A stretch of DNA of 64,000 nt from Candidatus Gottesmanbacteria bacterium (GTDB lineage: Bacteria; Patescibacteriota; Microgenomatia; UBA10105; UBA927): positions 199,802-263,801 of the forward strand of contig CAIJMI010000005.1 of NCBI GenBank assembly GCA_903821745.1, given 5' to 3'. The notes under the pieces are model-generated. The model made no database searches, was not told where the DNA came from, and saw only the letters and a list, made by a program, of their open reading frames with translations. The first letter of the stretch is position 1, and every line of letters begins with the position of its first letter. A program made the translations under genes and the position numbers. Shown here piece by piece: positions 6,644 through 51,228 of the stretch.

Positions 6644-6650
6644 ACAACCC

Positions 6651-7154
6651 ATGGGAAAAGAGATGGTCTCAATCATTGCTGCAATTGGAGAAAATCGGGA
6701 GCTTGGGAAAAACAACAAGCTCTTATGGGATATTCCTGAAGACATGGAACACTTCCGCAGTAAAACCCGTGGACATGCGGTCATTATGGGCAGAAAAACG
6801 TATGAATCCATCGGCCACGCACTTCCCAATCGCCCAAACATTGTTATTACCCGGGATGAAACATTTACCACTCCTGATGGCTGTTTTATTGTACATTCTC
6901 TGGATGAAGCAATTGAATTAGGACGACAGAAAGAACAGGAGGAACTCTTTATTATCGGCGGCGCAAATATCTATGAACAGGCAATGGAGAAAACCGATAA
7001 ACTATATCTGACCATCGTTCATCAAACTTTTCCTGATGCAGATACTTTTTTCCCCGACTACTCTCGTTTTTCAAACGTCATATCATCAAAGGAGAGTAAC
7101 GATCAAAACTTTTCCTATACCTTTCTTGAACTTGTCCCAGAAACGGCAGGCTAA
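6651..7154 (+). CDS. folA: Dihydrofolate reductase
   Basis: MVSIIAAIGENRELGKNNKLLW...IMGRKTYESIG DHFR signature, in the classic thyA-folA pairing. Start taken at the ATG at 6651 after the thyA stop; the ORF-track start at 6555 overlaps thyA. Confidence 0.9.
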   Translation: MGKEMVSIIAAIGENRELGKNNKLLWDIPEDMEHFRSKTRGHAVIMGRKTYESIGHALPNRPNIVITRDETFTTPDGCFIVHSLDEAIELGRQKEQEELFIIGGANIYEQAMEKTDKLYLTIVHQTFPDADTFFPDYSRFSNVISSKESNDQNFSYTFLELVPETAG

Positions 7155-7157
7155 GGT

Positions 7158-9732: not shown

Positions 9733-9736
9733 GATT

Positions 9737-31634: not shown

Positions 31635-32387
31635 TTATTTCGCAACTTTTGGACGAGGAAGAGAAGCTAGTGAGCCGTGGATAGCTTCCTGAAAAGGAAC
31701 GTACGTTGAAGGGAAAAACGCTAAAGGAATAAATACATCTTGTTGGTGAAACATGGTTTTCACAAACTCCTTTGTACCGGAAAGTTTTTTCGCATCCTTC
31801 ATCGCCATATTTGCCGCAACAATTGCCCGCTTCAAACCCTCATCCGTCACTTCGGGCCCTATAAACACTCCGCCAATAGAAACGGTTGGAATAACCGTCC
31901 CGTCAGATTCGTAGTTGCCTCCGGGGAATTTTTCAACAAGGCGGTTTCCAATCTCATCGAGCTCTTCCTTCGAATGAATTTGCTTTAAGAAAACAACAAA
32001 TTCATCACCACCAAGACGAAATATTTCACTTTTGTTTTCATCAAAATTAACGGTTAATAGCCGACTCGTCCGTTGTAAAAAATCATCTCCATATTCCTCT
32101 GATAATGTTTTATTAATTTGGCCAAAACCATTTCCGTCGACAAAAAGAAATCCGATGTTTCGAACATTGTCATCAAGAAGCTGTGTCATCCGTTCATTCA
32201 ACAAACGCCGAGTTTTTACTCCCGTTAACGGATCAACTGCTACTCGTTCCTCAAGAATCCGCACATAATCGTCACTGTGATAATCAGGACGAAATTGATC
32301 TTCATTTGGATCATTAGTAATTGCGTTCGTTAACGCAATATATTCTTCCTCGATATCCTTTGGCATTTCAGGGATTGGTTCAGACAT
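31635..32387 (-). CDS. GGDEF-domain protein (diguanylate cyclase), no sensor domain
   Basis: DPLTGVKTRR and intact RLGGDEFVVF motifs. Start at the internal Met (MSEPIPEM) just after the upstream gene stop; the ORF-track extension to 32591 overlaps the phosphorylase gene. Confidence 0.8.
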   Translation of the reverse strand: MSEPIPEMPKDIEEEYIALTNAITNDPNEDQFRPDYHSDDYVRILEERVAVDPLTGVKTRRLLNERMTQLLDDNVRNIGFLFVDGNGFGQINKTLSEEYGDDFLQRTSRLLTVNFDENKSEIFRLGGDEFVVFLKQIHSKEELDEIGNRLVEKFPGGNYESDGTVIPTVSIGGVFIGPEVTDEGLKRAIVAANMAMKDAKKLSGTKEFVKTMFHQQDVFIPLAFFPSTYVPFQEAIHGSLASLPRPKVAK

Positions 32388-32391
32388 ACAA

Positions 32392-33225
32392 CTATTTAAT
32401 AATAGCAGGAACAGTCCATTGTTTCTTGGTCTTCCTTTTTTCTTTATCCCACCCTTCCAAAATATGAACCGCAAGGGATGCAACTTTCCCGGCCCGTTTC
32501 TGATATTCGTCCGTGATATTAAATTCGTTCGTAACGCGGTTGGCAATAACGGTACACACTGCCCCTGCCCGTTTTCCAAAAAGACTGGCAAGGGTAAAGA
32601 GACAGGAAGCTTCCATTTCGAAATTCTCTACTCTGGCAAGTTGCATATCCTTCACGATATGTGCTTTGTGACTGGGAAAATAATCTTGAAACCCTGGACG
32701 TCCCTGACCACAATAAAAGGTATCGGTTGATGCAGTAATGCCGACATGATAGGGAATCTTTAACGCTTCTGCTGCAGCAATCAATGCTTGTACAACTTCA
32801 AAATGCGCAATGGCTGGATATTCGGAAATCACATAGTCGCGACTTGCTCCATCAAGCCGAACTGCGCCGGTTGAAATAATGACATCACCTAAATGATGTT
32901 TCTTTTGCAACCCTCCAGTTGTGCCAACGCGGATAAACGTATCGACATTGATACGAGATAATTCCTCAATGGCAATTGCCAAAGATGGCGCACCAATCCC
33001 GGTTGATGTACAGGAAATCGGTGTTTCTTGAAACTTTCCCGTCATCGTATGGTATTCCCGATGATGCGCTACTTCTTTGGCACCATCCCAATCCGATGCA
33101 ATTTTTGAAACTCTCCCTGGGTCACCAGGAAGAAGGACAGAAGATGCAACATCATGCGGTCCACAATCGATATGATATTGCTTACCACCAATAACAGGAG
33201 CTTTTGCTGAAACTTTTTTTACCAT
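32392..33225 (-). CDS. Nucleoside phosphorylase (PNP/UDP family 1; uridine phosphorylase-like)
   Basis: LLPGDPGRV, EMEASCLFT and TGIGAPS blocks. Start at the internal Met (MVKKVSAKAPVIGG). Confidence 0.75.
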   Translation of the reverse strand: MVKKVSAKAPVIGGKQYHIDCGPHDVASSVLLPGDPGRVSKIASDWDGAKEVAHHREYHTMTGKFQETPISCTSTGIGAPSLAIAIEELSRINVDTFIRVGTTGGLQKKHHLGDVIISTGAVRLDGASRDYVISEYPAIAHFEVVQALIAAAEALKIPYHVGITASTDTFYCGQGRPGFQDYFPSHKAHIVKDMQLARVENFEMEASCLFTLASLFGKRAGAVCTVIANRVTNEFNITDEYQKRAGKVASLAVHILEGWDKEKRKTKKQWTVPAIIK

Positions 33226-33407
33226 ATTATTCTCCTTCGGCAAGTGTTGCCGGTTGCGGCCCATCATCTTTGCAAAGTCGTGTCGTTTCTCTTTCAAGGT
33301 TTGGGTCAAACACAGTTTCAGTTTGATATTCAGCGCCACTTTCTCCCATAACTATACCGATCTTTGCGCTTGGATCCCCTTCATTCATATATCCTCCTTT
33401 ATAGACA

Positions 33408-34019
33408 TTATTTATATATCCGATGACAATGTTCGCAAACCGCAATATATTTATCCCCAGCTCCTACATCAATAACTCCCTTTGTGCCACCAACTCGTTC
33501 GCTGTGCCGTGCAAGACCGCCACATTTTTGACAAACTGCCATAAGCTCCAAATATTCATCCGCAAGTCCAACAAGATCCGGCGTTGCGCCAAACGGCTGC
33601 CGTTTATAATCATATAAAAGACCAGCGGCTATAACATGAATGCCTTTTTTCTTCAGTGTACTAATGACTGCCTTAATTTTTTCCTTGTCAAAAAACTGCA
33701 CCTCATCGACAATCACTTTGTCTGCTTCCGTTGCCAAAATCTTTTCAATCATGACGTCCTTGGATTCCCCATTTATAACTAATGCTTTAGACCGCTTATG
33801 GTCATGACTGTGAATTTCTTTTTTCCCACCATAGCGGTCATCAATTTTTGGTTTGACGGTGAGAACAGAATGCCCCATACGGGTGAAGACTTCAACCAAG
33901 GTAACCAGTTTCCCGGTTTTCCCGGAAAACATAGGTCCAGCAATGACCGTTAATTTCCCTGTTCTTCTGCTTCCTTTAGATGATATGTTTTTCCTTGAGT
34001 GCACCGATGATTTTTTCAT
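33408..34019 (-). CDS. tdk: Thymidine kinase
   Basis: P-loop GPMFSGKTG and a C-terminal zinc ribbon (CQKCG...CEHCH); 203 aa. Confidence 0.9.
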   Translation of the reverse strand: MKKSSVHSRKNISSKGSRRTGKLTVIAGPMFSGKTGKLVTLVEVFTRMGHSVLTVKPKIDDRYGGKKEIHSHDHKRSKALVINGESKDVMIEKILATEADKVIVDEVQFFDKEKIKAVISTLKKKGIHVIAAGLLYDYKRQPFGATPDLVGLADEYLELMAVCQKCGGLARHSERVGGTKGVIDVGAGDKYIAVCEHCHRIYK

Positions 34020-35088
34020 GGATTACCTCTTTGGGCAGCAGAGTACCTTGTTCATTCACACAATCTATTTTTATCCAGTTTTTCCGTTCTTTTGCAAGCC
34101 GAAGATACATGCGTTCTGATTCTGCGCGATGTTTCAAATCTGCCTCAGCGATATCAAGTTTTCCTTTTGTATAATTTCGCTGTTCTTTTTTGAGTGTCAG
34201 GTCATATCCAATTTTCCATGGAACATAGAGATAGATAACGATATCCTCCCGTGGAATTTTATGTACTTTGTATTCCATTTCATCGAGCCAGGAAATAAAC
34301 TCGGTTCGTTTTGCTTCAGGCAACTTTGCAGCCTGATGTGCCATGGATGACGTTGCATAACGGTTTGACAATAACACCCCACCTTGAGATAACCACGCAT
34401 CCATCTCTTCCTTTGCTGATGCGCGGTCAAGCGCATACGAAAGCGCCGCAAGATAGGGAGAAACGACATCTAGTGCACCAAATTCACCACTTAAAAAACG
34501 TCCGACAACACGTCCGTGGAATGAACTGTAATAACGAGGAAAATCCATATACTTCACTTTTTTCCCTTGTTTTTCCAGTGCTGCTTTTAACAGCTCGGAT
34601 TGCGTTGCTTTTCCGGATCCATCACCACCGTCAATGACGATCAATTTTCCTTTTCTCTTTTTAAGTGTGCTGACTTCTGCAAAAAAATGTTTCAAGATAA
34701 TCAAAATATTGTCATCTTCATAATGCTCAAGATACAAATGATCTGATGGATTTCCGGCAATCATGGGAGACAACAAATTCTCCGCATCTTTATAAAACAA
34801 CGCAAGCACAGGTTTGTTATGAATTAAGGCATACACGATCTCTCCTCCAACACCACTGGATGGACTCGTTACCTCAGCAACCACACAATCCGCTGCTTCG
34901 ATCCGGTCTTTTTCTCGGGTAAATATTTCCTTCGCACTCAATTTTTCATCTTTTTTTCGAAGCAGTGGTGTAATTATTTGATCACCGGAAACGCTGGAGT
35001 GACCGAGCATTTTAATTGCGGAAAGAATTTCCTTATTTCGTGTTCCATGTCCATCATGCGTTGTAGCTGCAGTAAAATATACCTTCAT
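33976..35088 (-). CDS. tmk: Fusion protein: N-terminal nucleoside 2-deoxyribosyltransferase/Rcl-like domain + C-terminal thymidylate kinase
   Basis: Residues 1-150: MKVYFTAA...IEAADCVVAEVTSPSSGVGGEIVYALIHNKPVLALF, an NDT/DNPH1-like flavodoxin-fold pattern. From about residue 160: IVIDGGDGSGKATQ P-loop and DRY-like Tmk core. 370 aa; overlaps tdk by 44 nt. Confidence 0.75.
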   Translation of the reverse strand: MKVYFTAATTHDGHGTRNKEILSAIKMLGHSSVSGDQIITPLLRKKDEKLSAKEIFTREKDRIEAADCVVAEVTSPSSGVGGEIVYALIHNKPVLALFYKDAENLLSPMIAGNPSDHLYLEHYEDDNILIILKHFFAEVSTLKKRKGKLIVIDGGDGSGKATQSELLKAALEKQGKKVKYMDFPRYYSSFHGRVVGRFLSGEFGALDVVSPYLAALSYALDRASAKEEMDAWLSQGGVLLSNRYATSSMAHQAAKLPEAKRTEFISWLDEMEYKVHKIPREDIVIYLYVPWKIGYDLTLKKEQRNYTKGKLDIAEADLKHRAESERMYLRLAKERKNWIKIDCVNEQGTLLPKEVIHEKIIGALKEKHII

Positions 35089-35093
35089 AGTGT

Positions 35094-35732
35094 TTATACT
35101 ACCACATGTAATTGTTTTTTTACTTGGTCAATCATATGTTCCTGGGCTTTTGCGCTCGTTACAATATTTAATCCGTCTGTTGCAATGACAAGGACAGGAA
35201 TTTCTTTTTGTTCTGTAAGCCATTTGTGATTGAGCATATCCAAAAGTTCGAGGTAACTTTGCGGAATTTTTTGCTCATATCCCCGACCACGTGAAGAGAT
35301 GCGTTTCGTAATATGGGGCATAGACGTTTCAAGATACACAATACAATCTGGTTTTGGAAAGAGTGGCTCAAAGGAAAAATATATTTTTTGATAGAGCTTC
35401 CATTCTGCATCATCAATATTACCAAGAACGTGTTGCGCTTTTGCATATGAAAAAACATCCTGTTGAATGGGCGTATCCTGAATAATGGATTTTTTTTCAA
35501 GCAATGCACAGGTATCCATCATCTGGGTTATTTTTTCCATCAAGAAAAATGTTTGGGAATGAAACGCCCACCGTTTCATATCACTATAAAACCGAGAGAG
35601 AAATGCATTCTCACCAAAATTCTCTTCAAGAAGTTGAAACTGTAAGTGCCGAGCAAGAAGTCTAGCAGCGGTCGTCTTTCCGCTTCCCATGGTGCCCATG
35701 ACTGAAATATACCAATGGTTTTTTGTGTTCAC
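35094..35732 (-). CDS. Deoxynucleoside kinase (dAK/dGK/dCK family)
   Basis: P-loop GTMGSGKTT, ERS-like region; 212 aa. Confidence 0.85.
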   Translation of the reverse strand: MNTKNHWYISVMGTMGSGKTTAARLLARHLQFQLLEENFGENAFLSRFYSDMKRWAFHSQTFFLMEKITQMMDTCALLEKKSIIQDTPIQQDVFSYAKAQHVLGNIDDAEWKLYQKIYFSFEPLFPKPDCIVYLETSMPHITKRISSRGRGYEQKIPQSYLELLDMLNHKWLTEQKEIPVLVIATDGLNIVTSAKAQEHMIDQVKKQLHVVV

Positions 35733-35776
35733 AATATCAATCGTTGTATCACGTCACGGGCAAAAATGACAAGATA

Positions 35777-35950
35777 TCAGAATACTGTTTTAGTACACAA
35801 TATGTTCAAACACCCACTACTTCGAATATCCATCCCACCGTTTGAACATGCAATATATAACACAACGAGTGCTAAAACGGTGAACGCTATACCAAGAGCA
35901 ATGATAAACGGCTTTTCATAATTGTGAGTACCAAGAGCAGATTTTTTCAT
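35777..35950 (-). CDS. Small hypothetical single-TM protein (57 aa), below the ORF-track cutoff
   Basis: Minus-strand ORF MKKSALGTHNYEKPFIIALGIAFTVLALVVLYIACSNGGMDIRSSGCLNILCTKTVF found by manual translation in an otherwise empty 316-nt gap upstream of the dNK operon. Confidence 0.3.
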   Translation of the reverse strand: MKKSALGTHNYEKPFIIALGIAFTVLALVVLYIACSNGGMDIRSSGCLNILCTKTVF

Positions 35951-38552: not shown

Positions 38553-39125
38553 TTATTCGAGGTCTTTGGCAATTTGACTTGCAACAGGGGCATTCTGATT
38601 TTTGTATTTTGCATCACCTCGCGTCAAATATGGTTGTTCAGAAGAGTGTGTTAACTCCTCAAACGTAAAAGAACAAATCCGCATGCCGGTATACAGGGCA
38701 ACGGGCATGCGCCCTAAATTTCCCAATTCAAGTACCGCAACCCCATGCCAGCCGGGATCAAAGACGGACGCTGTTGAATGAACGACAATACCAAGTCGTC
38801 CTAAACTCGATCTCCCTTCAAGACGAGCAAGTAAGTTATCTGGAATAGTAATGGTTTCCATCGTGGTTGCGAGCACAAAATCGCCTGGCTGAAGAATAAA
38901 CGGTTCGCCATCTTTTACCGTTATTTCTGTCATGAGATCATCAGTGACATTGGGATTATTCGTATCAATGAGGGCAATTTTACTATGATTAAAGACGCGA
39001 AATTTTGCACCCAGTCGGAGATCGATAGAACAGGACCCAAGTTGTGTTGCAACATCCGGAACAGGATCAATAACGATCCGTTTTTCTACTAATGCTTTTT
39101 TAATATCACCGTCAGATAAAATCAT
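38553..39125 (-). CDS. dcd: dCTP deaminase
   Basis: MILSDGDIKKALVEKRIVIDP N-terminus and dUTPase-like fold motifs. Start at the internal Met. Confidence 0.85.
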   Translation of the reverse strand: MILSDGDIKKALVEKRIVIDPVPDVATQLGSCSIDLRLGAKFRVFNHSKIALIDTNNPNVTDDLMTEITVKDGEPFILQPGDFVLATTMETITIPDNLLARLEGRSSLGRLGIVVHSTASVFDPGWHGVAVLELGNLGRMPVALYTGMRICSFTFEELTHSSEQPYLTRGDAKYKNQNAPVASQIAKDLE

Positions 39126-39276
39126 AAGTGGGTGTGCATGGAATCGGACCATGTGCCTCTTTCTTATCAGGAAAGCGTTCTACCGATGAACTACACACCC
39201 GGTAAGGTTTTAGTAACTTCAGTCTTCCATTGTACTATAGCTACCCACTATGCATCAATCAGGGTCAATAAACGTG

Positions 39277-39348
39277 AGGCGCGTGCCGGAATCGAACCGG
39301 CGCATAGAAGTTTTGCAGACTCCCGCGTTACCTCTTCGCCAACGCGCC
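39277..39348 (-). tRNA. tRNA-Cys (GCA)
   Basis: The reverse complement reads GGCGCGT-TGGCGAAGAGGTAACGC-GGGAGT-CTGCAAA-ACTTC-...-GGTTCGATTCC-GGCACGCGCC-T. This gives a 7-bp acceptor stem, a GGTTCGATTCC T-arm and a GCA anticodon in a 7-nt loop; CCA is not encoded. Confidence 0.75.
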
Positions 39349-39431: not shown

Positions 39432-40097
39432 ATGACAACAACACTCGTTATTTGTTGTAAAAACGAAGCCCCATCACTTGCTGCTGTCATCAATAAGGCA
39501 AAGCCGTACGTACATGAAATAATTGTCATCGATGGTCATTCAACCGATGGATCACGCACTATTGCCAAAAATGCAGGAGTAAAAGTATTTGAAGATAATG
39601 GAAAAGGCAAAGGAGCAGCAATACAACTGGGTATACAGAAAGCATCAGGAGACATCATCATATTTATGGATGCAGATGGCTCACATAAAGCGTCTGATAT
39701 CCCAAAACTTACTAAACCAATACATAAAAACAAAGCAGACCTTGTTATTGCATCGCGTGGAATTGGTGGCAGTAACGAACTACACGGGGATTTTGAAAAA
39801 ACATTGCGTCTTATCGGGAGTGCCATCATTACTCAAATAATTAACTGGCGGTACCATGCTCATATTACTGATTCCCAAAATGGATTTCGAGCAATTCGTC
39901 GCTCTGTTGCAAAATCACTGAATCTCCAAGCAAATAGTTTCGCTATCGAACAAGAAATGCTAATGCAAATTTTAAAACGTAATGCAAAAGTTAGTGAAAC
40001 AGGAAGTCATGAATTTGCACGTAAGTATGGAAATTCAAAAATTAATCTTCCAAGAATGTGGTATAAATACTTAATTAATTTAATACAAAATCTATAA
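39432..40097 (+). CDS. GT2 glycosyltransferase (DPM1/ArnC-like polyprenyl-phosphate sugar synthase)
   Basis: VICCKNEAPSL...IIVIDGHSTDGS...IIFMDADGSH, the DxD-containing GT-A fold pattern; 221 aa, a short soluble form. Confidence 0.8.
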   Translation: MTTTLVICCKNEAPSLAAVINKAKPYVHEIIVIDGHSTDGSRTIAKNAGVKVFEDNGKGKGAAIQLGIQKASGDIIIFMDADGSHKASDIPKLTKPIHKNKADLVIASRGIGGSNELHGDFEKTLRLIGSAIITQIINWRYHAHITDSQNGFRAIRRSVAKSLNLQANSFAIEQEMLMQILKRNAKVSETGSHEFARKYGNSKINLPRMWYKYLINLIQNL

Positions 40098-40132
40098 ATT
40101 AACTTGTACATTACAATGCACTTTCGTTCGTT

Positions 40133-41242
40133 TCAATAAAATGCATTATCTTTATTAACAATATTAACTACGATATTATAAAGAGAAAAAGCAATTCTAG
40201 CTTGGGATTCTTGATACAAATGCATTATGTCCATAAACATTGTTTCCTCTACGTTGGCAACGGCTGAAGATAGATCAACAAAGTAAACATTCTTATTACC
40301 CATAGCGTCAACGACTCGTTTCTTCATATCACGAAACCACTCCTGTTCTGTTGACATCACTAATGGTTTTTCTTCATCGGTTAAATACAATTTGTCATAC
40401 AAAATTGGCTGCAATATCGCAATATACTCACTTCCAAACGCATGACTTATTTTGTGGGCTTTTTGTAAATTATCACTGTATACGGAAATAATAGTATTTT
40501 TCCATGATTCTGAACCGTACATAGCCTCATTACGTATTTGTGTGAGAGGAACAAATTGATTCAGATACCATTCAGGAGCAAATCGTTCCGCAAAAAACTG
40601 AACAACCGGTAACTTAGATATAAAAAACTTCCAGATTGACATTCTTTCAGGATAAAGCAATGGACTAACCTCATACATCATATAATCATATGGATAACCT
40701 GGTCTTGGATCATAATATAAAGGGTGATACAAATCGTTTACTCCATCATATTGAATAATAAGATCTGGCTGTAAATTAGAGAGATTTGTTACGATAGTCA
40801 TTAATTCTTGAGAAGACACAGCAGAAATAACCCCAAAATTATACACTCGTACATTATAATATCCTCGTTTATGAAATTCTTCTTCAAGTAAAACTGGTAA
40901 AGACGGATCTCCTATGTATACTGTTGATCCACCCAATATACATATTCTGTATTCATCTACGGGTTTCGGTACAACAGGATATGGACCGCGATATCCTTCT
41001 TGATTATGATCTTCCCAATACGGAAGTCCTTTAAACATAATATATGGGTATGGAATCTTATAGGTATCTGTACGAAAACGTTCCTGTACAGGGTTACGAA
41101 TGCTAAGATACGCACTAAAAATAATGTTGATAATGGAAAAAAATAATATTATAGCGATCACAACTGCACTAATTTTCCCCAAAAGCGCTATCCAATAAGA
41201 TGTTTTTTTCTCTTTAAATAATCGTTTAGGTACGAAAAACAT
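40133..41242 (-). CDS. Membrane-anchored SGNH/GDSL-family hydrolase (paralog 1 of 5)
   Basis: N-terminal TM; block I ILGGSTVYIG, block III QYDGVNDL (GxND), block V DIMHLY (DxxH). Confidence 0.6.
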   Translation of the reverse strand: MFFVPKRLFKEKKTSYWIALLGKISAVVIAIILFFSIINIIFSAYLSIRNPVQERFRTDTYKIPYPYIMFKGLPYWEDHNQEGYRGPYPVVPKPVDEYRICILGGSTVYIGDPSLPVLLEEEFHKRGYYNVRVYNFGVISAVSSQELMTIVTNLSNLQPDLIIQYDGVNDLYHPLYYDPRPGYPYDYMMYEVSPLLYPERMSIWKFFISKLPVVQFFAERFAPEWYLNQFVPLTQIRNEAMYGSESWKNTIISVYSDNLQKAHKISHAFGSEYIAILQPILYDKLYLTDEEKPLVMSTEQEWFRDMKKRVVDAMGNKNVYFVDLSSAVANVEETMFMDIMHLYQESQARIAFSLYNIVVNIVNKDNAFY

Positions 41243-41297
41243 ATTGTATCTACATATATTCTTTTTCTTTAATATTTTATACTATAACATAGAATAT

Positions 41298-42773
41298 ATT
41301 ATGTCATTTACGAGGAGTTCGAGAAAATCACTATTCTCCATTCATACATACGAAAAAGCAATGTTTTGTCTCTGTGTGCTACACATTTTTTTAAGACTAC
41401 CTCTTCGAACTATGATTCCATTTAATGACGGGAATGTGTACTATGCAACAGTTTTTAACATTATCCAGAATAACCTCAATCCATTTATTTTTACAATATC
41501 ATATAAACCACCAGTCATTAGCGAGCTCATGGCTATTATTTTCTCGGTATTCCATCCATCTATCGTCATTGGAAACATAGCAATGTATATCATTTCATCC
41601 GTAACGTTATGGTATATATATCTTCTCGGGAAACGTGTATTTACTCCAGTTGTTGGTTTTTATGCCGCGTTACTATGTTCCTTATTTCCTCTTTTTACTG
41701 CTCAAAGCGTTGTTTTTAACGACGCCGTTATTGTCACAACTGTTGTTCTTGCTACGGTCTATTATTTCTTTTCATCTAATTGGATTGGGTATGGCATTGC
41801 CTGTTCGCTTCTTGTCTTAACAAAAGAACCACTTCTCGCTGTCCCTGTATTGCTCTATATATACTCCGTCATATATACATTTCAAAAATCACATACATCA
41901 TTTCTCACAATACTGATAAAACGAATTCCACTCCTTTTTCCACTTATATTATTTCCGATATGGATGTATATAAATAAACAAACACTCGGTATATATCTGG
42001 ATCCGATAAACCAAAACAAATCGTATCTACATCGTTTTTACGGAGCGCCCATTCAAGAAATCTTAAAATATCTTTTTGTTAAAAATGGCATGTGGTGGAT
42101 ATGGTTAACATTCGGTGTAACACTACTTAAACACTCAAACAGGATAAAAAAACAATGGATCATCATTATGTGGTTCATAACGATTTTTTTGTTCTACGGA
42201 ATATTCTTTTCTCTAAGCGCCTTTAATCCAAGATACATGCTCCCATATTTTCCATATGTTTTCATAAGCTTTTGTGCTGTACTGTTCTTCGCATATTCCA
42301 AAAAATTTTTTCGACTCTTTATACTCCTAACAGTTATTATGTTCCTCGGAATACATATCAATCTCTTTTTCTTCAACGTATCTGATGGCTGGGGAGAAGG
42401 TGATTTACGTATTATTCAAACAACGTCTCTTTATACAAAAACTTTTGAGTATGTCTACGAACATTACCAACATCCTCTCATCGTCACCTATCCTGAAGTG
42501 TATACGTGGAGCGATACTGCATTTGGAAAAACTCCAGGCGCATACAAATATGAATGTTACTTTTTTAATCAAATTAATGATGAGAAAGAAGAAATGCAAC
42601 GCATGTTCACCTATGCAAAAGAAAAAAATGCGTCTCCTATTATCTTTATTCAACCAAGTTACATGGGTGAAGTAAACGAAATAAACGCAATACGAAAATT
42701 GCCTATTAAACGAATTAATAATCCGTGGAATAAATATAACTATCACGACTTATACGAAATTGCAGTACAATAA
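41298..42773 (+). CDS. GT-C fold glycosyltransferase, ArnT/PMT(PMT_2)-like (paralog 1 of 3)
   Basis: Polytopic. First extracytoplasmic loop FNDGNVYYA...NPF...YKPPV resembles the ArnT/PMT DExxYA...KPPL signature; about 12 TMs. Start at the internal Met (41298) to leave a divergent promoter; the ORF begins at 41244. Confidence 0.5.
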   Translation: MMSFTRSSRKSLFSIHTYEKAMFCLCVLHIFLRLPLRTMIPFNDGNVYYATVFNIIQNNLNPFIFTISYKPPVISELMAIIFSVFHPSIVIGNIAMYIISSVTLWYIYLLGKRVFTPVVGFYAALLCSLFPLFTAQSVVFNDAVIVTTVVLATVYYFFSSNWIGYGIACSLLVLTKEPLLAVPVLLYIYSVIYTFQKSHTSFLTILIKRIPLLFPLILFPIWMYINKQTLGIYLDPINQNKSYLHRFYGAPIQEILKYLFVKNGMWWIWLTFGVTLLKHSNRIKKQWIIIMWFITIFLFYGIFFSLSAFNPRYMLPYFPYVFISFCAVLFFAYSKKFFRLFILLTVIMFLGIHINLFFFNVSDGWGEGDLRIIQTTSLYTKTFEYVYEHYQHPLIVTYPEVYTWSDTAFGKTPGAYKYECYFFNQINDEKEEMQRMFTYAKEKNASPIIFIQPSYMGEVNEINAIRKLPIKRINNPWNKYNYHDLYEIAVQ

Positions 42774-43833
42774 ACAAGATATGCAACGATTACTCGCCAG
42801 CGTACTACCTGTTCTCCAATCAAATTTCAAAAGACTTCCCCATCCATATAAATTAACCTTTGCAATAACCTATCGGTGTAACTCACGATGTACCATTTGT
42901 AATATCTGGAAAAAACCGCATTTCCCTGAAATGACGCTTGATAACATCAAAAAATTTTTCACCGCTAATCCTTACTTTCGCTGGGTAAATTTAACAGGAG
43001 GAGAAGTATTTTTACGACCTGATCTTATTGAGATTATCAAGATAATTCTTCATACACAAAAAAATCTATATTTTTTAAACTTTCCAACAAACGGCATCAT
43101 GACAAAACAGATTGTTAAACAATTACAACAAATTCTTAATCTTAATCCACCCCATTTCATTGTATCTATCTCTCTTGACGGTCCCAAAACAACACATGAT
43201 ACGCTTCGTGGAATAACAGGAAACTGGGAAAAGGCAGTAAAAACTTATAAAGAATTAAAGAAACTACGATCCAGTCATTTTGACACCTATTTCGGAATGA
43301 CACTCTCTCATTATAATAATGGACTCATCGAACAAACTTATGAGGAACTAAAAAAAGCCATCCCCTCACTTAAGCGGTCTGATATTCACTTCAATATTGC
43401 CCATCATTCATCTCATTATTATGGAAATACTGCTCAAGACGGAAACGTCAACATAAAAACAATAGAGCATCTTGATGCGTACAACAAAAAAAAGAGCTTT
43501 GTGTTAACAAAAATATCGTTCATAGAATATGTTTACCAACGCCACATAAAACAATATCTCACAACAAAAAAAACACCTCTCCCATGTCTTGCGCTCTCAA
43601 GTTCAGTATTTCTTAACCCCTATGGCATGATTTATCCATGCTCCATGTGGAATATGCCTCTTGCCAATATTCAAGATATTAATTATGATCTCCAAGCGCT
43701 CTGGAATACAAAAAAAACAAAACAGGCAAGAATCCTCATTGCGCGAAAAAAATGTTCAAATTGCTGGACACCATGTGAAGCATATCAAAGCATCTTGGGC
43801 AATATGTTTACATCTGAAGTATGGGAAAAATAA
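42760..43833 (+). CDS. Radical SAM protein with C-terminal SPASM/twitch-like Cys cluster
   Basis: CNSRCTIC (Cx3Cx2C) at residues 40-47 and a C-terminal Cys cluster ...PCLA...YPCS...CSNCWTPCEAY; 357 aa. Confidence 0.8.
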   Translation: MQYNKQDMQRLLASVLPVLQSNFKRLPHPYKLTFAITYRCNSRCTICNIWKKPHFPEMTLDNIKKFFTANPYFRWVNLTGGEVFLRPDLIEIIKIILHTQKNLYFLNFPTNGIMTKQIVKQLQQILNLNPPHFIVSISLDGPKTTHDTLRGITGNWEKAVKTYKELKKLRSSHFDTYFGMTLSHYNNGLIEQTYEELKKAIPSLKRSDIHFNIAHHSSHYYGNTAQDGNVNIKTIEHLDAYNKKKSFVLTKISFIEYVYQRHIKQYLTTKKTPLPCLALSSSVFLNPYGMIYPCSMWNMPLANIQDINYDLQALWNTKKTKQARILIARKKCSNCWTPCEAYQSILGNMFTSEVWEK

Positions 43834-45296
43834 CATTTCCCCGCGTACAACGACTTCTTCTTATCAATCCCTACGCAGGGTATGCACAAGGAACAAATGA
43901 ATCGACTGTATATCCTCCCATCGGACTTTCTTATGTTGCAGCCAGCGCTGAACAATGTGGCGTACACTGTAACATTATTGATGCCGCAGCACTAAAATTA
44001 CCGATAAAATCGTTGTTTGCCACAATTAAAGCATTTGTACCCGATTGTATTGGTATTACGAGTAACATTGTTACCGCTGAAGCAGCAATTCAAACTGGGA
44101 AAGAGATACATGCACGGTTTCCAACAATTCCCCTTATTTTTGGTGGTCCTTATGCAACGGCATATCCTGAATATATCTTAAAACAAACACAAGGCTATCT
44201 TGTTATTCGAGGAGAAGCAGAAGAAACTATCAAGGAACTTCTATCCAGACGCGTTTCTCTTTCATCAATACGTGGTATTTCATATAAAAAGGGACGTAGA
44301 TATATACACACAAATCAACGCCCATTAATTCAGGATATCAACACAATTCCCTTCCCCGCTTACCATTTACTCCCTCCACTATCCGTATATAAATCAAGAA
44401 ATAGAAAAACACCAATAGGCGTCATCCTCTCAAGTCGTGGATGTCCCTATCAATGTATTTATTGCAATGCAAATATTTTTGGAAAACAATTTCGCCCAAG
44501 AAGTGTCGATAATGTATTAAAAGAAATAGATATATTAGTTACTACATATCACATCAAACAACTAGATGTTTTAGACGATAATTTTACATTACTTATTGAG
44601 AGAGCTGAAGCAATTTTTGACGGTATTATTAAAAATAAGTTTAACATTCGTATCAATCTTCAAAACGGCGTACGAGCAGATCGACTTAGCCCACGGCTTA
44701 TTCGAAAAATGAAACAGGCAGGTGTCTACAAAGCCACCATAGGCGTAGAATCAGCCGATCTCCACATACAAAAAACCATAAAAAAAACATTGTCACTTCC
44801 AAAGGTTGTATGGGCAATCAAACAATTTCGCAAATACGATATTATTACTGCGTGCACATTTATCTTCGGCCTACCTGGAGAAACAAAGAAAACCATTGAA
44901 AAAACAATAGCATTTGCTATACGCGCTAACCCACATATGGCAAATTTTTCTGCTCTTGTTCCTTTACCGCAAACAGCAGTATACGAAATGATTCAAAAAA
45001 ATGGAACATTTCTCCGGCCTATCGAGCATGGATTACCAACTGGTTTTATCACAAACACATTATATTTTAAACTTGACGCAATAAATCAAGAATTGATTTC
45101 ATTCGCCATGTCTTCTGCTTTTCGACTTTTTTACTTCAGAATTTCAAAACTTATAGATTTATCCAAAACAATCCGTTCGTGGGGAGAATTTACTTGGAGT
45201 CTTTCTATGATTTACGGAGTGATAAAAAATATTAATATTTTTCCATCAACAAAAATATTTTCGCGTTATTTATTACATGAAAGTGAGATATGCTGA
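43821..45296 (+). CDS. B12-binding (class B) radical SAM protein
   Basis: N-terminal B12-binding Rossmann region (LLINPY...YPPIGLSYVAA...IGITS), then SSRGCPYQCIYC (Cx3Cx2C). 491 aa; overlaps the preceding rSAM gene by 13 nt. Confidence 0.8.
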   Translation: MGKITFPRVQRLLLINPYAGYAQGTNESTVYPPIGLSYVAASAEQCGVHCNIIDAAALKLPIKSLFATIKAFVPDCIGITSNIVTAEAAIQTGKEIHARFPTIPLIFGGPYATAYPEYILKQTQGYLVIRGEAEETIKELLSRRVSLSSIRGISYKKGRRYIHTNQRPLIQDINTIPFPAYHLLPPLSVYKSRNRKTPIGVILSSRGCPYQCIYCNANIFGKQFRPRSVDNVLKEIDILVTTYHIKQLDVLDDNFTLLIERAEAIFDGIIKNKFNIRINLQNGVRADRLSPRLIRKMKQAGVYKATIGVESADLHIQKTIKKTLSLPKVVWAIKQFRKYDIITACTFIFGLPGETKKTIEKTIAFAIRANPHMANFSALVPLPQTAVYEMIQKNGTFLRPIEHGLPTGFITNTLYFKLDAINQELISFAMSSAFRLFYFRISKLIDLSKTIRSWGEFTWSLSMIYGVIKNINIFPSTKIFSRYLLHESEIC

Positions 45297-46300
45297 ATTT
45301 CTGAAACTAGTATTTGTGCTATACGGTTGTGGCCTGCTTCAGCGACGTGGCACTCATCGACTAACTCATTAGAATATGAATCTAAAAACAACTGTTCTAA
45401 ATCAACAAATGGAACCTGTTCTTTCTGAGCGACAACCCGTAATAAGGCATTATATTTCGGAACAGATGCACGCCAATTATCTGACGCTGTTTGAGAAACG
45501 TCACCGTGTAAGCGGGTTAGTAATAACACTGACGTTCCCTGAGACCGAGCAATTCGGATAAACTCCTCTATATTATGTACATAGTCTGAGTAAGAAACCC
45601 TTGATACGTTACCTTGCGTTTTTCGAAACACAAGACTCACCTTATCAGAATAATAAAATATCACTTGAAACAAACGAGATATTGACAATGGCGTAATAAT
45701 GCCGGAAAGAAATGAATGGAACTCGTTATCTGGAATTCCCATAGCCGGAGCTGCATCATTCCAACCAAAAGATATAATAATTAGGGATGGATGAAATACA
45801 AATACATCTTGTTTAAATTTCTCCAGCCCTTGATACGATGAGTATCCCATCACTCCCATATTTAAAACACGAAACGGTGTGGATTGATCTTTTAAATAGG
45901 AAGCGAGTACTTCTGGCCATGGAGTATCAACATATCTGCCAGGAATAATCCCTAACGTATTCGAATCTCCATACGTGAGGATAGTACATCCTGAAACGGT
46001 TGCTATATTTTCTTGTATCGATGATCCGCGAATACCCAACTCATTAAATACTCCCCAATTCTTTTTTGGTTTCCAAAATAACACAGGGTCATATTCTAAA
46101 TCAGAGTCATTTTCAGAAAGTACAAAATCCAAACGCAGTTCTTCTTTTTCAACACGCTCTTTTTTTAGTTCTATCGGTTTGTAGTATGAAAGAATATGAA
46201 ACGCGGTAAGTATACGAGCAATACATTCAAAACCAACAAAAAGCAAAATGAAAAAACAAACCCCAAGAATAACAGATAGTATTTTTTCTTTATATGTCAT
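45266..46300 (-). CDS. Membrane-anchored SGNH/GDSL-family hydrolase (paralog 2 of 5)
   Basis: N-terminal TM; block I ILTYGDSNTLG, block III FGWNDAA, block V DECHVAEAGH. Confidence 0.7.
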   Translation of the reverse strand: MTYKEKILSVILGVCFFILLFVGFECIARILTAFHILSYYKPIELKKERVEKEELRLDFVLSENDSDLEYDPVLFWKPKKNWGVFNELGIRGSSIQENIATVSGCTILTYGDSNTLGIIPGRYVDTPWPEVLASYLKDQSTPFRVLNMGVMGYSSYQGLEKFKQDVFVFHPSLIIISFGWNDAAPAMGIPDNEFHSFLSGIITPLSISRLFQVIFYYSDKVSLVFRKTQGNVSRVSYSDYVHNIEEFIRIARSQGTSVLLLTRLHGDVSQTASDNWRASVPKYNALLRVVAQKEQVPFVDLEQLFLDSYSNELVDECHVAEAGHNRIAQILVSEIQHISLSCNK

Positions 46301-46348
46301 ACAGTTATTATATACATATAAGACTAATCACATGAACACGCTAACCAT

Positions 46349-49658: not shown

Positions 49659-51143
<1,485 letters not shown>

Positions 51144-51228
51144 AAATTTCCTATCACCGTTTAATTCACCAAGATATTTACTGTACTGACTATACTGCTT
51201 GCAAATATGTTAACGAGCAAAAAGAGAG

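What the first reader, a model, noticed from the sequence alone, without database searches (positions are those of the whole stretch)
32392..35950. Thymidine/deoxynucleoside salvage block with a thymidylate kinase fused to a nucleoside 2-deoxyribosyltransferase/Rcl-like domain
Nucleoside phosphorylase, tdk, tmk and a deoxynucleoside kinase are contiguous, with tdk overlapping tmk by 44 nt. thyA-folA and dcd lie elsewhere in the window. The tmk ORF carries a 150-aa N-terminal extension whose pattern (MKVYFTAA...AADCVVAEV...GGEIVYALIHNKPVLALF) looks like the NDT/DNPH1 flavodoxin-like fold, which binds or cleaves 2'-deoxynucleosides or dNMPs. The fusion would couple deoxyribosyl transfer or dNMP hydrolysis to dTMP phosphorylation. 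For an organism lacking de novo nucleotide synthesis, this is a compact scavenging module.
Basis: partly seen in the sequence, partly recalled or inferred. Interest (0 to 1): 0.55.

Follow-up and report, generated by a model that had tools for sequence, protein, structure and literature searches.

The report
DNPH1-like domain fused to thymidylate kinase
A candidate-phyla-radiation bacterium (Gottesmanbacteria-like) makes its thymidylate kinase as one rigid protein with a domain resembling the human nucleotide-pool "sanitiser" DNPH1; this fusion is conserved across many related uncultured bacteria, has not been studied, and may edit or rebuild DNA precursors before they are phosphorylated.

Summary
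On the minus strand, dNK (35094-35732), a 370-aa fusion ORF (33976-35088), tdk (33408-34019, 44-nt overlap) and a uridine-phosphorylase-like gene (32392-33225/33339) are contiguous. thyA-folA and dcd lie elsewhere in the window.

The fusion's C-terminal part is a Mycobacterium-type dTMP kinase with its substrate-binding residues intact. Residues 1-145 are DNPH1/Rcl-type (dNMP N-glycosidase), not classical nucleoside 2-deoxyribosyltransferase:
- The family profile hits DNPH1 at E 1e-15; the best NDT hit is E 0.006.
- The top 50 PDB fold matches are all DNPH1.
- The nucleophile Glu (E83), Tyr (Y4) and both 5'-phosphate serines (S77, S107) are kept.
- The general acid is Glu (E59) instead of Asp.
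- The hmU-recognising Arg and His are replaced by T10 and Q37.

The fusion is real and old. More than 200 distinct full-length sequences exist in Gottesman-, Woese- and Roizmanbacteria, and dN/dS is about 0.04 in both halves. A rare, independent reverse-order fusion (Tmk followed by canonical DNPH1) sits in a dcd-thyX-dut cluster.

The most likely function is a dNMP N-glycosidase that edits or recycles deoxynucleotides next to Tmk. A DmtZ-like phosphodeoxyribosyl transferase that makes dTMP is a live rival. I found no paper describing the fusion. It is a new variant of known kinds and of moderate interest.

The parts
35094..35732 (-). Deoxynucleoside kinase (dNK). The ORF is 212 aa from a GTG start; the likely start is the ATG at 35690, giving 198 aa. 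It is the first gene of the co-directional run and stops 5 nt before the fusion start.
   Evidence: PF01712 at 1e-43. Gene call of 198 aa on an identical contig. dNK lies upstream of the fusion in 19 of 80 related loci.
34654..35088 (-). Residues 1-145 of the fusion: a DNPH1/Rcl-like (NDT superfamily) domain. Proposed active-site residues are Y4, E59, E83 (nucleophile), S77 and S107' (5'-phosphate), I55, Q37 and T9-T10. Family-specific invariant motifs are GNPS (112-115) and LEHY (120-123).
   Evidence: PF05014 at 31.8 bits, above the gathering score. DNPH1 hits at E 1e-9 for the single sequence and 1e-15 for the profile. AF2 pLDDT 87.9, with the top 50 PDB matches all DNPH1 at TM 0.64-0.83. 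Residue conservation.
33976..34653 (-). Residues 146-370 of the fusion (plus the stop codon): a dTMP kinase domain of the Mycobacterium tuberculosis type. It has the P-loop GGDGSGK (K160), FPRY (Y186), Y218/R222 (matching Mtb F70/R74) and NRY (R243, matching Mtb R95).
   Evidence: PF02223 at 58.4 bits and PRK07933 at 6.6e-38. Mtb TMPK 1g3u at E 1.8e-17, with the printed alignment. Foldseek TM (target-normalised) 0.73-0.86 to TMPKs. K160 and R222 are invariant in 205 relatives and R243 is kept in 204 of 205.
33976..34019 (-). The 44-nt overlap between the 3' end of the fusion ORF and the 5' end of tdk. An AAGAGGT Shine-Dalgarno-like motif lies 6 nt upstream of the tdk ATG, which suggests translational coupling.
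   Evidence: tblastn shows tdk matches starting before the fusion ORF ends in the closest relatives L001 and L002.
33408..34019 (-). Thymidine kinase (tdk), 203 aa, with the P-loop GPMFSGKT and two CxxC zinc motifs.
   Evidence: PF00265 at 4.9e-42 and NF003296 at 3e-48.
32392..33225 (-). Uridine-phosphorylase-like nucleoside phosphorylase, 277 aa from M39. The mechanical ORF extends to 33339.
   Evidence: PF01048 at 3.7e-39 and TIGR01718 at 276.8 bits against a cutoff of 280.3. Gene call of 277 aa. AAGGAG lies upstream of the ATG at 33225.
5696..7154 (+). thyA (5696..6643) and folA (ORF 6555..7154). This is thymidylate synthesis elsewhere in the window. In some relatives, thyA-folA lies immediately upstream of the fusion.
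   Evidence: PF00303 at 6.5e-104 and PF00186 at 2.3e-52. Loci L050 and L069.
38553..39152 (-). dCTP deaminase (dcd). It is adjacent to the fusion in several relatives.
   Evidence: PF22769 at 1.9e-47. Loci L037, L048 and L060.

Best explanation
The 370-aa protein is a rigid two-enzyme fusion. Residues 1-145 form a DNPH1/Rcl-type 2'-deoxynucleoside 5'-monophosphate N-glycosidase domain. Residues 146-370 form a Mycobacterium-type dTMP kinase.

**Proposed chemistry of the N domain.** It binds a dNMP with its 5'-phosphate held by S77 and by S107 from a partner subunit. It cleaves the base-sugar bond by covalent catalysis: E83 is the nucleophile, positioned by Y4, and E59 is the general acid. The products are a free base and deoxyribose 5-phosphate. 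The Tmk domain phosphorylates dTMP to dTDP.

**Proposed role.** The gene is translated in a run dNK -> fusion -> tdk (44-nt overlap) -> uridine-phosphorylase-like gene. It is therefore made together with the enzymes that turn scavenged deoxynucleosides into dNMPs. I propose that the N domain edits the dNMP pool at the point where it enters the thymidylate branch. It would destroy unwanted or surplus dNMPs before Tmk commits them to DNA, and recycle their base and sugar phosphate. The most plausible targets are non-canonical 5-substituted dUMP-type nucleotides, which Tmk could otherwise phosphorylate.

**Shown:**
- The architecture, the fold and the presence and conservation of the catalytic and phosphate-binding residues.
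- The lineage-wide conservation of the fusion.
- An independent reverse-order fusion in a thymidylate-synthesis cluster.

**Inferred:**
- That the domain is catalytically active.
- The identity of its substrate. The base-recognition residues differ from those of human DNPH1.
- That hydrolysis rather than transfer is the physiological reaction.
For: **Domain identity**
- Pfam PF05014 scores above its gathering score, together with PF02223.
- DNPH1/Rcl are the only solved relatives of the single sequence (E 1e-9).
- The family profile hits DNPH1/Rcl at E 1e-15 over positions 3-139 of 145. The best NDT hit is only E 0.006.
- The AF2 N-domain model (pLDDT 87.9) has DNPH1 chains as all of its 50 best PDB matches, at TM 0.64-0.83.

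**Active-site mapping against human DNPH1**
- Reference residues (PMC10603095): triad Y24/D80/E104; phosphate S98 and S128'; base recognition R30, H56 and I76.
- Here they map to Y4, E59, E83, S77, S107 and I55 (alignments).
- Conservation in 205 fusions: Y/F4 in 201; E83 in 189; S77 in 194; S107 in 183, plus T in 15; E59 in 168.

**Evidence for one functional site**
- In the 16 sequences that lost E83, S107 falls from 0.94 to 0.31, Q37 from 0.92 to 0.44 and S115 from 0.98 to 0.50.
- In the same sequences Tmk residues K160 and R222 stay at 1.00.
- This pattern is expected if these residues form one site that is maintained for catalysis in the majority.

**Selection and structure**
- dN/dS is 0.044 (N half) and 0.041 (C half) against L001.
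- The full-length model has pTM 0.83. Helix 128-144 runs into Tmk strand 148-154 with a 3-residue linker.

**Tmk domain**
- The dTMP-site residues are conserved relative to Mtb TMPK.
- TMPK fold matches have TM 0.73-0.86.

**Functional linkage**
- The fusion is found full-length in at least 80 species-level genomes of Gottesman-, Woese-, Roizmanbacteria and other Microgenomates.
- A reverse-order fusion, Tmk followed by canonical DNPH1 (P0144 and P0278; E 2e-31 to rat Rcl), sits between a ThyX-like gene and dUTPase, next to dCTP deaminase, in two independent samples.
- Neighbours of the fusion in other lineages are dcd, thyA-folA, SHMT, dNK and tdk.
Against: - No biochemical data exist for any member of this family.
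- The general-acid position is Glu, not Asp, and it is Gln in 24 of 205 sequences.
- The residue aligned with E55, the water-activating residue of human DNPH1, is variable; it is E in only about 55% of sequences. Neither the substrate nor the hydrolytic second step can therefore be inferred from DNPH1.
- The alignment register around residues 34-37 differs by two residues between alignments.
- 8% of family members have lost the nucleophile yet keep the domain. The domain must therefore also have a non-catalytic value.
- A broad-specificity dNMP hydrolase co-expressed with dNK and tdk would create a futile cycle.
I could not check active-site geometry or the distance between the two active sites.
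Confidence: 0.55

Rival explanations
1. The N domain is a natural phosphodeoxyribosyltransferase, like phage DmtZ. It forms the E83-deoxyribose-5-phosphate intermediate from an abundant dNMP and passes it to free thymine or another base instead of water. That would make dTMP directly for the fused Tmk and rebalance a scavenged dNMP pool without ATP.
For: - DmtZ is a DNPH1-like phage enzyme shown to hydrolyse dAMP and to transfer dR5P to 2-aminoadenine. It is sometimes fused to a Dut-like domain (PMC12884076). This chemistry and this kind of fusion therefore exist in nature.
- The phosphate-binding serines are conserved here.
- The position matching the water-activating E55 of DNPH1 is not conserved, which would favour a long-lived intermediate.
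- Transfer would cooperate with the co-expressed kinases rather than oppose them.
- The nucleoside phosphorylase next door can supply free pyrimidine base.
Against: - No residue diagnostic of transfer could be identified.
- The Pro said to shield transferase active sites is not conserved in this family (P41 is present only in close relatives).
- DmtZ itself transfers only about 20% in vitro.
- No phage relative of the N domain was detected.
Confidence: 0.17
2. The N domain no longer works as an enzyme in this family's biology. It would instead serve as a dimerisation scaffold or as a dNMP-binding regulatory module that tunes Tmk activity.
For: - 16 of 205 fusions have lost the nucleophile (to L, Q, I, F or D) in several lineages but retain the domain with an intact Tmk.
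- More distant members (P0127, P0139, P0141, P0135) have strongly degenerate N domains.
- The junction is rigid.
- Both DNPH1 and Tmk are dimers (DNPH1: PMC10603095; Tmk: established knowledge, not tested here).
Against: - In the window's protein and in 92% of relatives, the nucleophile, the Tyr and both phosphate serines are kept.
- These residues decay together only where E83 is lost. That is the signature of an active site under selection in the majority.
- The N-half dN/dS of 0.044 equals that of the essential kinase half.
Confidence: 0.15
3. The N domain is a classical nucleoside 2-deoxyribosyltransferase. It swaps bases at the nucleoside level (dN + thymine -> thymidine), feeding tdk and then Tmk.
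For: - The Pfam family name, and the NCBI product name on some members.
- It would give a neat three-step path NDT -> Tdk -> Tmk with the overlapping tdk.
- A singleton triple fusion N-domain-Tmk-TK exists (P0122).
Against: - The profile hits DNPH1 at 1e-15 but the best NDT only at 0.006.
- All 50 top fold matches are DNPH1.
- The 5'-OH-binding Asp/Asn of NDTs are Ser/Ser here, as in the monophosphate-specific enzymes.
- The triple fusion has lost the nucleophile (E83 to F) and occurs on a single contig.
Confidence: 0.06
4. The fusion is an artefact: two adjacent genes joined by a sequencing or assembly frameshift.
For: None found.
Against: - The identical 370-aa protein occurs on 11 contigs from different sources.
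- There are more than 200 distinct full-length relatives.
- The junction is conserved.
- The model is confident and continuous across the junction.
Confidence: 0.01

Closest known systems
DNPH1 / Rcl (2'-deoxynucleoside 5'-phosphate N-hydrolase 1; 5-hydroxymethyl-dUMP N-hydrolase) of mammals
   Same: - The fold matches (TM 0.64-0.83, 25-29% identity).
- The domain length is similar.
- It has the nucleophile Glu in a GVG-x-E motif, the Tyr in the N-terminal VYF strand, both phosphate-binding serines (including the one donated across the dimer), and the Ile that stacks on the base.
   Different: - It is fused to a kinase rather than free-standing.
- The general acid is Glu, not Asp.
- The GSIRGG loop is replaced by TAATT-x-x-G, so R30 is absent.
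- H56 is replaced by a conserved Gln.
- The E55 position is variable.
- There are new invariant GNPS and LEHY motifs.
- The substrate is unknown.
DmtZ of Z-genome phages (DNPH1-like dAMP hydrolase / dR5P transferase, sometimes fused to Dut-like DutZ; PMC12884076)
   Same: - It is a DNPH1-like domain acting on dNMPs.
- It occurs fused to another deoxynucleotide-metabolism enzyme.
- It shows that the superfamily can transfer deoxyribose 5-phosphate to a base.
   Different: - No detectable sequence match between the window's N domain and any phage record.
- The fusion partner differs (Tmk rather than a Dut-like domain).
- This is a cellular core-genome gene, not a phage gene.
- DmtZ has Asn at the general-acid position, whereas this domain has Glu.
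Classical nucleoside 2-deoxyribosyltransferases (NDT/PDT, Lactobacillus type) and MilB/BlsM CMP N-glycosidases
   Same: They share the superfamily (PF05014), covalent Glu catalysis and a dimeric active site.
   Different: - NDTs bind the 5'-OH with Asp/Asn, whereas this domain has Ser/Ser.
- The best NDT profile hit is only E 0.006.
- MilB uses Phe instead of Tyr to accept ribose, and an Arg for the phosphate. This domain has Tyr and no such Arg.
Mycobacterium tuberculosis-type thymidylate kinase (PRK07933; PDB 1g3u)
   Same: - It is the best sequence match for the C half (E 1.8e-17).
- The dTMP-site residues D9, K13, Y39, R74 and R95 are all matched (D156, K160, Y186, R222, R243).
- The FPRY and LDRA motifs are the same.
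   Different: - It carries a 145-aa N-terminal domain.
- F70 is replaced by Tyr, Y103 by His and D94 by Asn.
- It scores below the NCBIfam equivalog cutoffs (130 against 193; 56 against 83).
Reverse-order CPR fusion Tmk-DNPH1 (P0144, P0278)
   Same: It combines the same two enzyme families in one polypeptide, in a candidate-phyla-radiation genome, within a thymidylate-metabolism gene cluster.
   Different: - The domain order is opposite.
- The DNPH1 part is canonical (GSIRGGR, TEH and PSLGVGYE motifs; E 2e-31 to rat Rcl).
- The Tmk part is of the Parcubacteria type.
- It is rare: two clusters were found.
- It is therefore an independent fusion event.

Membership tests
DNPH1/Rcl-type dNMP N-glycosidase (NDT superfamily, PF05014) | Sequence membership in PF05014 above the curated threshold | tested here: met
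   31.8 bits against a gathering score of 28.8, residues 15-104. Most relatives carry the precomputed PF05014 hit.
DNPH1/Rcl-type dNMP N-glycosidase (NDT superfamily, PF05014) | Rossmann-like alpha/beta fold superposable on DNPH1 | tested here: met
   AF2 model with pLDDT 87.9. The top 50 Foldseek PDB hits are all DNPH1/Rcl, with E down to 8e-9 and TM 0.64-0.83.
DNPH1/Rcl-type dNMP N-glycosidase (NDT superfamily, PF05014) | Catalytic nucleophile Glu (human E104) and its positioning Tyr (Y24) | tested here: met
   E83 and Y4 align with E104 and Y24. E83 is kept in 189 of 205 relatives, and position 4 is Y in 175 and F in 26.
DNPH1/Rcl-type dNMP N-glycosidase (NDT superfamily, PF05014) | General-acid Asp (human D80) | tested here: inconclusive
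   The aligned residue is E59. It is E in 168, Q in 24 and D in 3 of 205 sequences. A carboxylate is present, but it is one methylene longer, and its geometry could not be checked without coordinates.
DNPH1/Rcl-type dNMP N-glycosidase (NDT superfamily, PF05014) | 5'-phosphate pocket formed by two serines (S98 and S128' from the partner subunit), instead of the Asp/Asn that bind the 5'-OH in NDTs | tested here: met
   S77 lies six residues before E83, as S98 does before E104. S107 lies in LSPMI, matching LSAMI. S77 is kept in 194 of 205; S107 is S in 183 and T in 15 of 205. The residue roles come from PMC10603095 and PMC12884076.
DNPH1/Rcl-type dNMP N-glycosidase (NDT superfamily, PF05014) | [quoted passage not shown] | tested here: not met
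   R30 aligns with T10 and H56 with Q37. E55 aligns with D36, a position that is variable across the family. The domain should therefore not be filed as an hmdUMP hydrolase orthologue. It is a divergent DNPH1-like subfamily.
DNPH1/Rcl-type dNMP N-glycosidase (NDT superfamily, PF05014) | Measured dNMP N-glycosidase activity | not testable with these tools
   Requires enzyme assays.
Classical nucleoside 2-deoxyribosyltransferase (class I/II NDT) | 5'-OH-binding Asp (L. leichmannii D92) and Asn (N123'), and closest similarity to NDTs | tested here: not met
   Both positions are Ser here. The best NDT in the PDB (7m5h) hits at E 0.006 and only partially, against 1e-15 for DNPH1. The D92/N123 numbering is from my own knowledge. 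The principle is stated in PMC12884076.
dTMP kinase (PF02223) | Pfam membership, P-loop GxxGxGK, and the dTMP-binding Arg/Tyr residues | tested here: met
   58.4 bits against a gathering score of 27. GGDGSGK, with K160 invariant. D156, Y186, R222 and R243 align with Mtb D9, Y39, R74 and R95. K160 and R222 are invariant and R243 is kept in 204 of 205 relatives.
dTMP kinase (PF02223) | NCBIfam equivalog thresholds (PRK07933, TIGR00041) | tested here: not met
   130.2 bits against a cutoff of 193, and 56 bits against 83.25. It is a divergent CPR-type Tmk. Standalone CPR Tmks are 45-50% identical to it.
dTMP kinase (PF02223) | TMPK fold | tested here: met
   Foldseek TM (target-normalised) 0.73-0.86 to P. 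falciparum, Mtb and human TMPK.

The most novel reading that the evidence does not exclude
The N domain is a cellular, naturally evolved phosphodeoxyribosyltransferase. It would move deoxyribose 5-phosphate from whichever dNMP is in excess onto thymine and hand the resulting dTMP to the covalently attached Tmk. That would be an ATP-free base-swapping route, letting genome-reduced CPR bacteria rebuild a balanced dNTP pool from scavenged DNA of different composition.
Probability: 0.15. Interest if true: 0.75.

Novelty: new variant of a known kind. Interest (0 to 1): 0.45.

Why it matters
DNPH1 became prominent only recently, as the hmdUMP "sanitiser" whose loss sensitises BRCA-deficient tumours to PARP inhibitors. 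Its relatives in bacteria are essentially unstudied.

Here a divergent DNPH1-like domain is welded to the essential thymidylate kinase throughout a large clade of uncultured, host-dependent bacteria. An independent fusion in the opposite order sits in a dcd-thyX-dut cluster. Together these argue strongly, in the Rosetta-stone sense, that dNMP N-glycosidase chemistry belongs to the thymidylate branch in these organisms.

If the domain is a sanitiser, it would show that scavenging bacteria police the dNMPs they import. If it is a transferase, it would be the first cellular phosphodeoxyribosyltransferase, and of biocatalytic interest. Either way it gives a concrete, easily expressed target of 370 aa, with no cofactors expected, for learning how CPR bacteria manage DNA precursors.

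Tried and rejected
- **Classical NDT reading.** Rejected on profile scores, fold ranking and the Ser/Ser 5'-pocket.
- **Frameshift or assembly artefact.** Rejected.
- **A conserved four-gene "salvage module".** Not supported beyond the closest relatives. tdk is adjacent in 5 of 80 loci and udp in 1 of 80.
- **The triple fusion N-domain-Tmk-TK (P0122) as support for NDT -> TK -> Tmk channelling.** Down-weighted. It is a singleton on one contig, it has lost E83, and it could be a one-base indel in the 44-nt overlap.
- **Homology search with the N domain alone.** It returned only 6 short proteins, probably truncated fusions, so the origin of the domain could not be traced.
- **tblastn of the N domain against 50,697 phage records.** No match.
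- **Foldseek of the full-length model against the PDB.** It is dominated by TMPKs and says nothing about the N domain, so I made a second, N-domain-only model.
- **AFDB fold search.** The library was unavailable.
- **Literature searches for the fusion.** Four term combinations found nothing relevant. The two papers that mention both enzymes list them as separate viral genes.
- **Kaminski & Labesse 2013.** The paper could not be read.
- **dN/dS beyond the two closest relatives.** Synonymous sites are saturated, so it is not usable.
- **Model coordinates.** They are not exposed, so inter-domain geometry and active-site distances could not be measured.

Full report
**1. Observation**

The minus strand carries four contiguous genes (families).

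| Gene | Coordinates | Evidence |
|---|---|---|
| dNK | 35094..35732 | PF01712, 1e-43 |
| fusion ORF (370 aa) | 33976..35088 | PF05014 + PF02223 |
| tdk | 33408..34019 | PF00265, 5e-42 |
| nucleoside phosphorylase | 32392..33339 | PF01048, 4e-39; TIGR01718 uridine phosphorylase 276.8 bits, just under the 280.3 cutoff |

- tdk overlaps the fusion by exactly 44 nt. Its ATG is preceded by AAGAGGT inside the fusion ORF.
- A gene caller on an identical public contig gives the same overlap. It starts dNK at 35690 and the phosphorylase at M39, position 33225.
- The fusion starts 5 nt after the dNK stop.
- The window also holds prs, a PfkB kinase, AdoHcy hydrolase, a HAD hydrolase and a NUDIX protein.
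- No second Tmk or DNPH1-like sequence is present in the window.

**2. The fusion is real**

- The ORF is uninterrupted, and the identical protein is on 11 contigs from ENA, NCBI and Logan assemblies.
- A search of 5.8 billion proteins found 2179 relatives. The best 120 are almost all full-length, at 62-100% identity (two cover 86% and 95% of the query). Their sources name them Candidatus Gottesmanbacteria, Microgenomates or Patescibacteria, with product names "dTMP kinase" or "nucleoside 2-deoxyribosyltransferase".
- In one-genome-per-species GTDB contigs, 165 stretches encode relatives. The 80 best all span both domains; 76 match from residue 1. They come from Gottesman-, Woese-, Roizmanbacteria and other Microgenomates.
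- Many of these records are titled "uncultured Gammaproteobacteria". That is evidently a placeholder label, since they share this gene and the rpsB-tsf-frr synteny.
- In the 50%-identity representative library, roughly a dozen clusters have the fusion architecture. After them come standalone Tmks of 220-235 aa at 45-50% identity.
- dN/dS against the closest relative is 0.044 for the N half and 0.041 for the C half.

**3. The C-terminal half is a dTMP kinase**

- It scores PF02223 at 58.4 bits and PRK07933 at 6.6e-38, though below the NCBIfam equivalog cutoffs.
- The best solved relative is M. tuberculosis TMPK (1g3u, E 1.8e-17). The printed alignment matches Mtb D9, K13, Y39, R74 and R95 with D156, K160, Y186, R222 and R243. 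F70 is Tyr here and Y103 is His.
- K160 and R222 are invariant across 205 relatives, and R243 is kept in 204 of 205.
- The full-length AF2 model (pLDDT 87.9, pTM 0.83) matches TMPK structures at a target-normalised TM of 0.73-0.86.

**4. The N-terminal half is DNPH1-type, not classical NDT**

*Similarity*
- Pfam PF05014 scores 31.8 bits, above its gathering score of 28.8.
- At E <= 0.1, the only PDB sequences matched by residues 1-147 are human and rat DNPH1/Rcl, at about 1e-9.
- A profile of 29 family N domains hits DNPH1/Rcl at 1e-15 across positions 3-139 of 145. The best true NDT (7m5h) reaches only E 0.006.
- An N-domain-only AF2 model (pLDDT 87.9, pTM 0.85) has DNPH1/Rcl chains as all 50 best Foldseek matches, at TM 0.64-0.83 and 25-29% identity.

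*Residue mapping*

The roles of the human residues come from PMC10603095. The alignments are, and the counts among 205 distinct fusions are.

| Human DNPH1 residue | Role | Residue here | Conservation |
|---|---|---|---|
| Y24 | triad | Y4 | Y 175, F 26 |
| D80 | general acid | E59 | E 168, Q 24 |
| E104 | nucleophile | E83 | 189 of 205 |
| S98 | 5'-phosphate | S77 | 194 of 205 |
| S128' | 5'-phosphate, from partner subunit | S107 | S 183, T 15 |
| I76 | base stacking | I55 | nearly invariant |
| R30 | base recognition | T10 | not kept |
| H56 | base recognition | Q37 | conserved Gln |
| E55 | water activation | D36 | variable; E in about 55% |

- The register of the 34-37 segment differs by two residues in the profile alignment. 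The Q37/H56 equivalence is therefore probable, not certain.
- NDTs hold the 5'-OH with Asp/Asn. Monophosphate-specific members have small uncharged residues at those positions (PMC12884076). This domain has Ser/Ser, so its ligand should be a nucleotide rather than a nucleoside.
- The invariant family-specific motifs GNPS (112-115) and LEHY (120-123) have no DNPH1 counterpart.

**5. Is the site maintained for catalysis?**

- In the 189 sequences that keep E83, S107, Q37, N113, S115 and S77 are 92-98% conserved.
- In the 16 that lost E83 (to L, Q, I, F or D, in several lineages), these fall to 31%, 44%, 62%, 50% and 69%. The Tmk catalytic residues stay at about 100%.
- This co-decay marks these residues as one functional unit under selection in the majority, including the window's protein.
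- It also shows that the domain is kept after losing its nucleophile. It therefore also has structural or regulatory value.
- That fits the rigid junction: helix 128-144 leads into Tmk strand 148-154 through three residues.

**6. Functional linkage to thymidylate metabolism**

- The same CPR-type Tmk is found fused to several partners:
  - DHFR (P0133)
  - a ThyX-like domain (P0220)
  - dUTPase (P0260)
  - a second Tmk (P0190)
  - a canonical DNPH1 at its C-terminus (P0144)
- That DNPH1 has the GSIRGGR, TEH, PSLGVGYE and LSAMIEG motifs. It matches rat Rcl at 2e-31 and is 35% identical to the window's N domain.
- The reverse-order fusion is rare (P0144 and P0278), and its Tmk is of the Parcubacteria type, so it arose independently.
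- In two independent samples it lies in the order dCTP deaminase, ThyX-like gene, [Tmk-DNPH1], dUTPase.
- Around the Microgenomates fusion the neighbours vary:
  - dNK upstream in 19 of 80 loci
  - tdk downstream in 5 of 80
  - udp in 1 of 80
  - dcd adjacent in L037, L048 and L060
  - thyA-folA directly upstream in L050 and L069
- In L010 the order is dNK, HAD, fusion, histidine phosphatase, an unassigned ORF, SHMT, rpsB.
- The block in this window is therefore lineage-specific. The association of the fusion with deoxypyrimidine and thymidylate genes is general.

**7. Mechanism**

*Best-supported reading (confidence about 0.55)*

The N domain is an active dNMP N-glycosidase using DNPH1 chemistry: an E83 covalent intermediate, with Y4 and E59 assisting, and the phosphate held by S77 and S107'. 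It works beside Tmk at the point where scavenged or newly made dNMPs are committed to DNA.

Because dNK and tdk are co-expressed, a non-selective hydrolase would be futile. By analogy with DNPH1, I therefore favour a selective editing role against non-canonical dNMPs that Tmk could otherwise phosphorylate, such as 5-substituted dUMP-type nucleotides. The base and deoxyribose 5-phosphate would be recycled. The substrate is inferred, not shown, and the changed base-recognition residues argue that it is not simply hmdUMP.

*Rivals*
- **A DmtZ-like phosphodeoxyribosyl transferase that makes dTMP for the attached kinase (0.17).** The chemistry and a comparable fusion are documented in phages. The variable E55 position would favour a long-lived intermediate.
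- **A non-catalytic scaffold or sensor (0.15).**
- **A classical NDT (0.06).**
- **An artefact (0.01).**

**8. Comparison with known systems and novelty**

- Both halves belong to known families.
- The N half passes the tests for fold, nucleophile, Tyr and phosphate pocket for DNPH1-type enzymes. It fails the hmdUMP base-recognition test and has Glu in place of the general-acid Asp. It is a divergent DNPH1-like subfamily, not an orthologue.
- I found no publication describing a DNPH1-Tmk fusion. Databases label it only automatically.
- I class it as a new variant of known kinds, of moderate interest (0.45).
- The most novel reading not excluded is a cellular phosphodeoxyribosyltransferase channelling dTMP to Tmk (probability about 0.15).

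Noticed in passing
window 49659..51145 (-): A complete bacterial 16S rRNA gene (1347 bits) with no 23S or 5S rRNA next to it in the window. Protein-coding ORFs lie on both sides (47674..49371 and 51734..53431). It appears to be an unlinked rRNA gene, and it also explains the local GC peak of 0.458.
   Followed up: partly
window 39128..39200 and 39276..39348 (-): tRNA-Ile(GAT) and tRNA-Cys(GCA) lie directly upstream of dcd. The mechanical dcd ORF (to 39152) overlaps the tRNA-Ile, so the true dcd start is probably the 190-aa version called on the identical contig.
   Followed up: partly
window ~40000..48000: A low-GC stretch (0.32-0.37, against about 0.41 elsewhere). It holds a family-2 glycosyltransferase, a PMT_2-type glycosyltransferase, radical SAM/SPASM and B12-binding radical SAM genes, and ORFs with no Pfam hit. 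It may be a cell-surface glycan or peptide-modification island.
   Followed up: no
proteins P0133, P0220, P0260, P0190 (metagenomic relatives): The same CPR-type Tmk occurs fused to DHFR, to a ThyX-like domain, to dUTPase and to a second Tmk. Tmk seems to be a hub for domain fusions of the thymidylate pathway in these lineages.
   Followed up: partly
proteins P0175, P0184, P0181, P0160: These are Tmk proteins with 160-190-aa N- or C-terminal extensions that have no Pfam match. The P0181 extension looks like a very divergent DNPH1-like domain (PSTGLGYE motif). The others are unassigned.
   Followed up: no
L083:194-1924 (protein P0122): A single 576-aa ORF joins the N domain (nucleophile lost, E83 to F), Tmk and thymidine kinase, and is followed by SHMT and rpsB-tsf. 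It occurs on one contig only. It could be a genuine triple fusion or a one-base indel in the tdk/tmk overlap.
   Followed up: partly
L010:5055-5714, 7107-7691, 8740-10044: In another Gottesmanbacteria genome the fusion is flanked by a HAD-family hydrolase and by a histidine phosphatase that overlaps the fusion's end by 4 nt. Serine hydroxymethyltransferase lies downstream. The two hydrolases are possible nucleotidases of the same pathway.
   Followed up: no
window 33227..33388 (-): A 53-aa ORF between tdk and the phosphorylase is called as a gene on the identical public contig. It has no family hit and overlaps the long version of the phosphorylase ORF.
   Followed up: no
window 31635..32387 (-): A GGDEF diguanylate-cyclase-domain protein (PF00990, 1e-22) lies directly downstream of the phosphorylase and co-directional with it. 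It was found in this position in only 1 of 80 related loci.
   Followed up: partly
loci L002-L080 record titles: Many MAG records that carry this Microgenomates-specific fusion and the rpsB-tsf-frr synteny are titled "uncultured Gammaproteobacteria bacterium" (binchicken TPA assemblies). The organism label looks wrong or is a placeholder.
   Followed up: no
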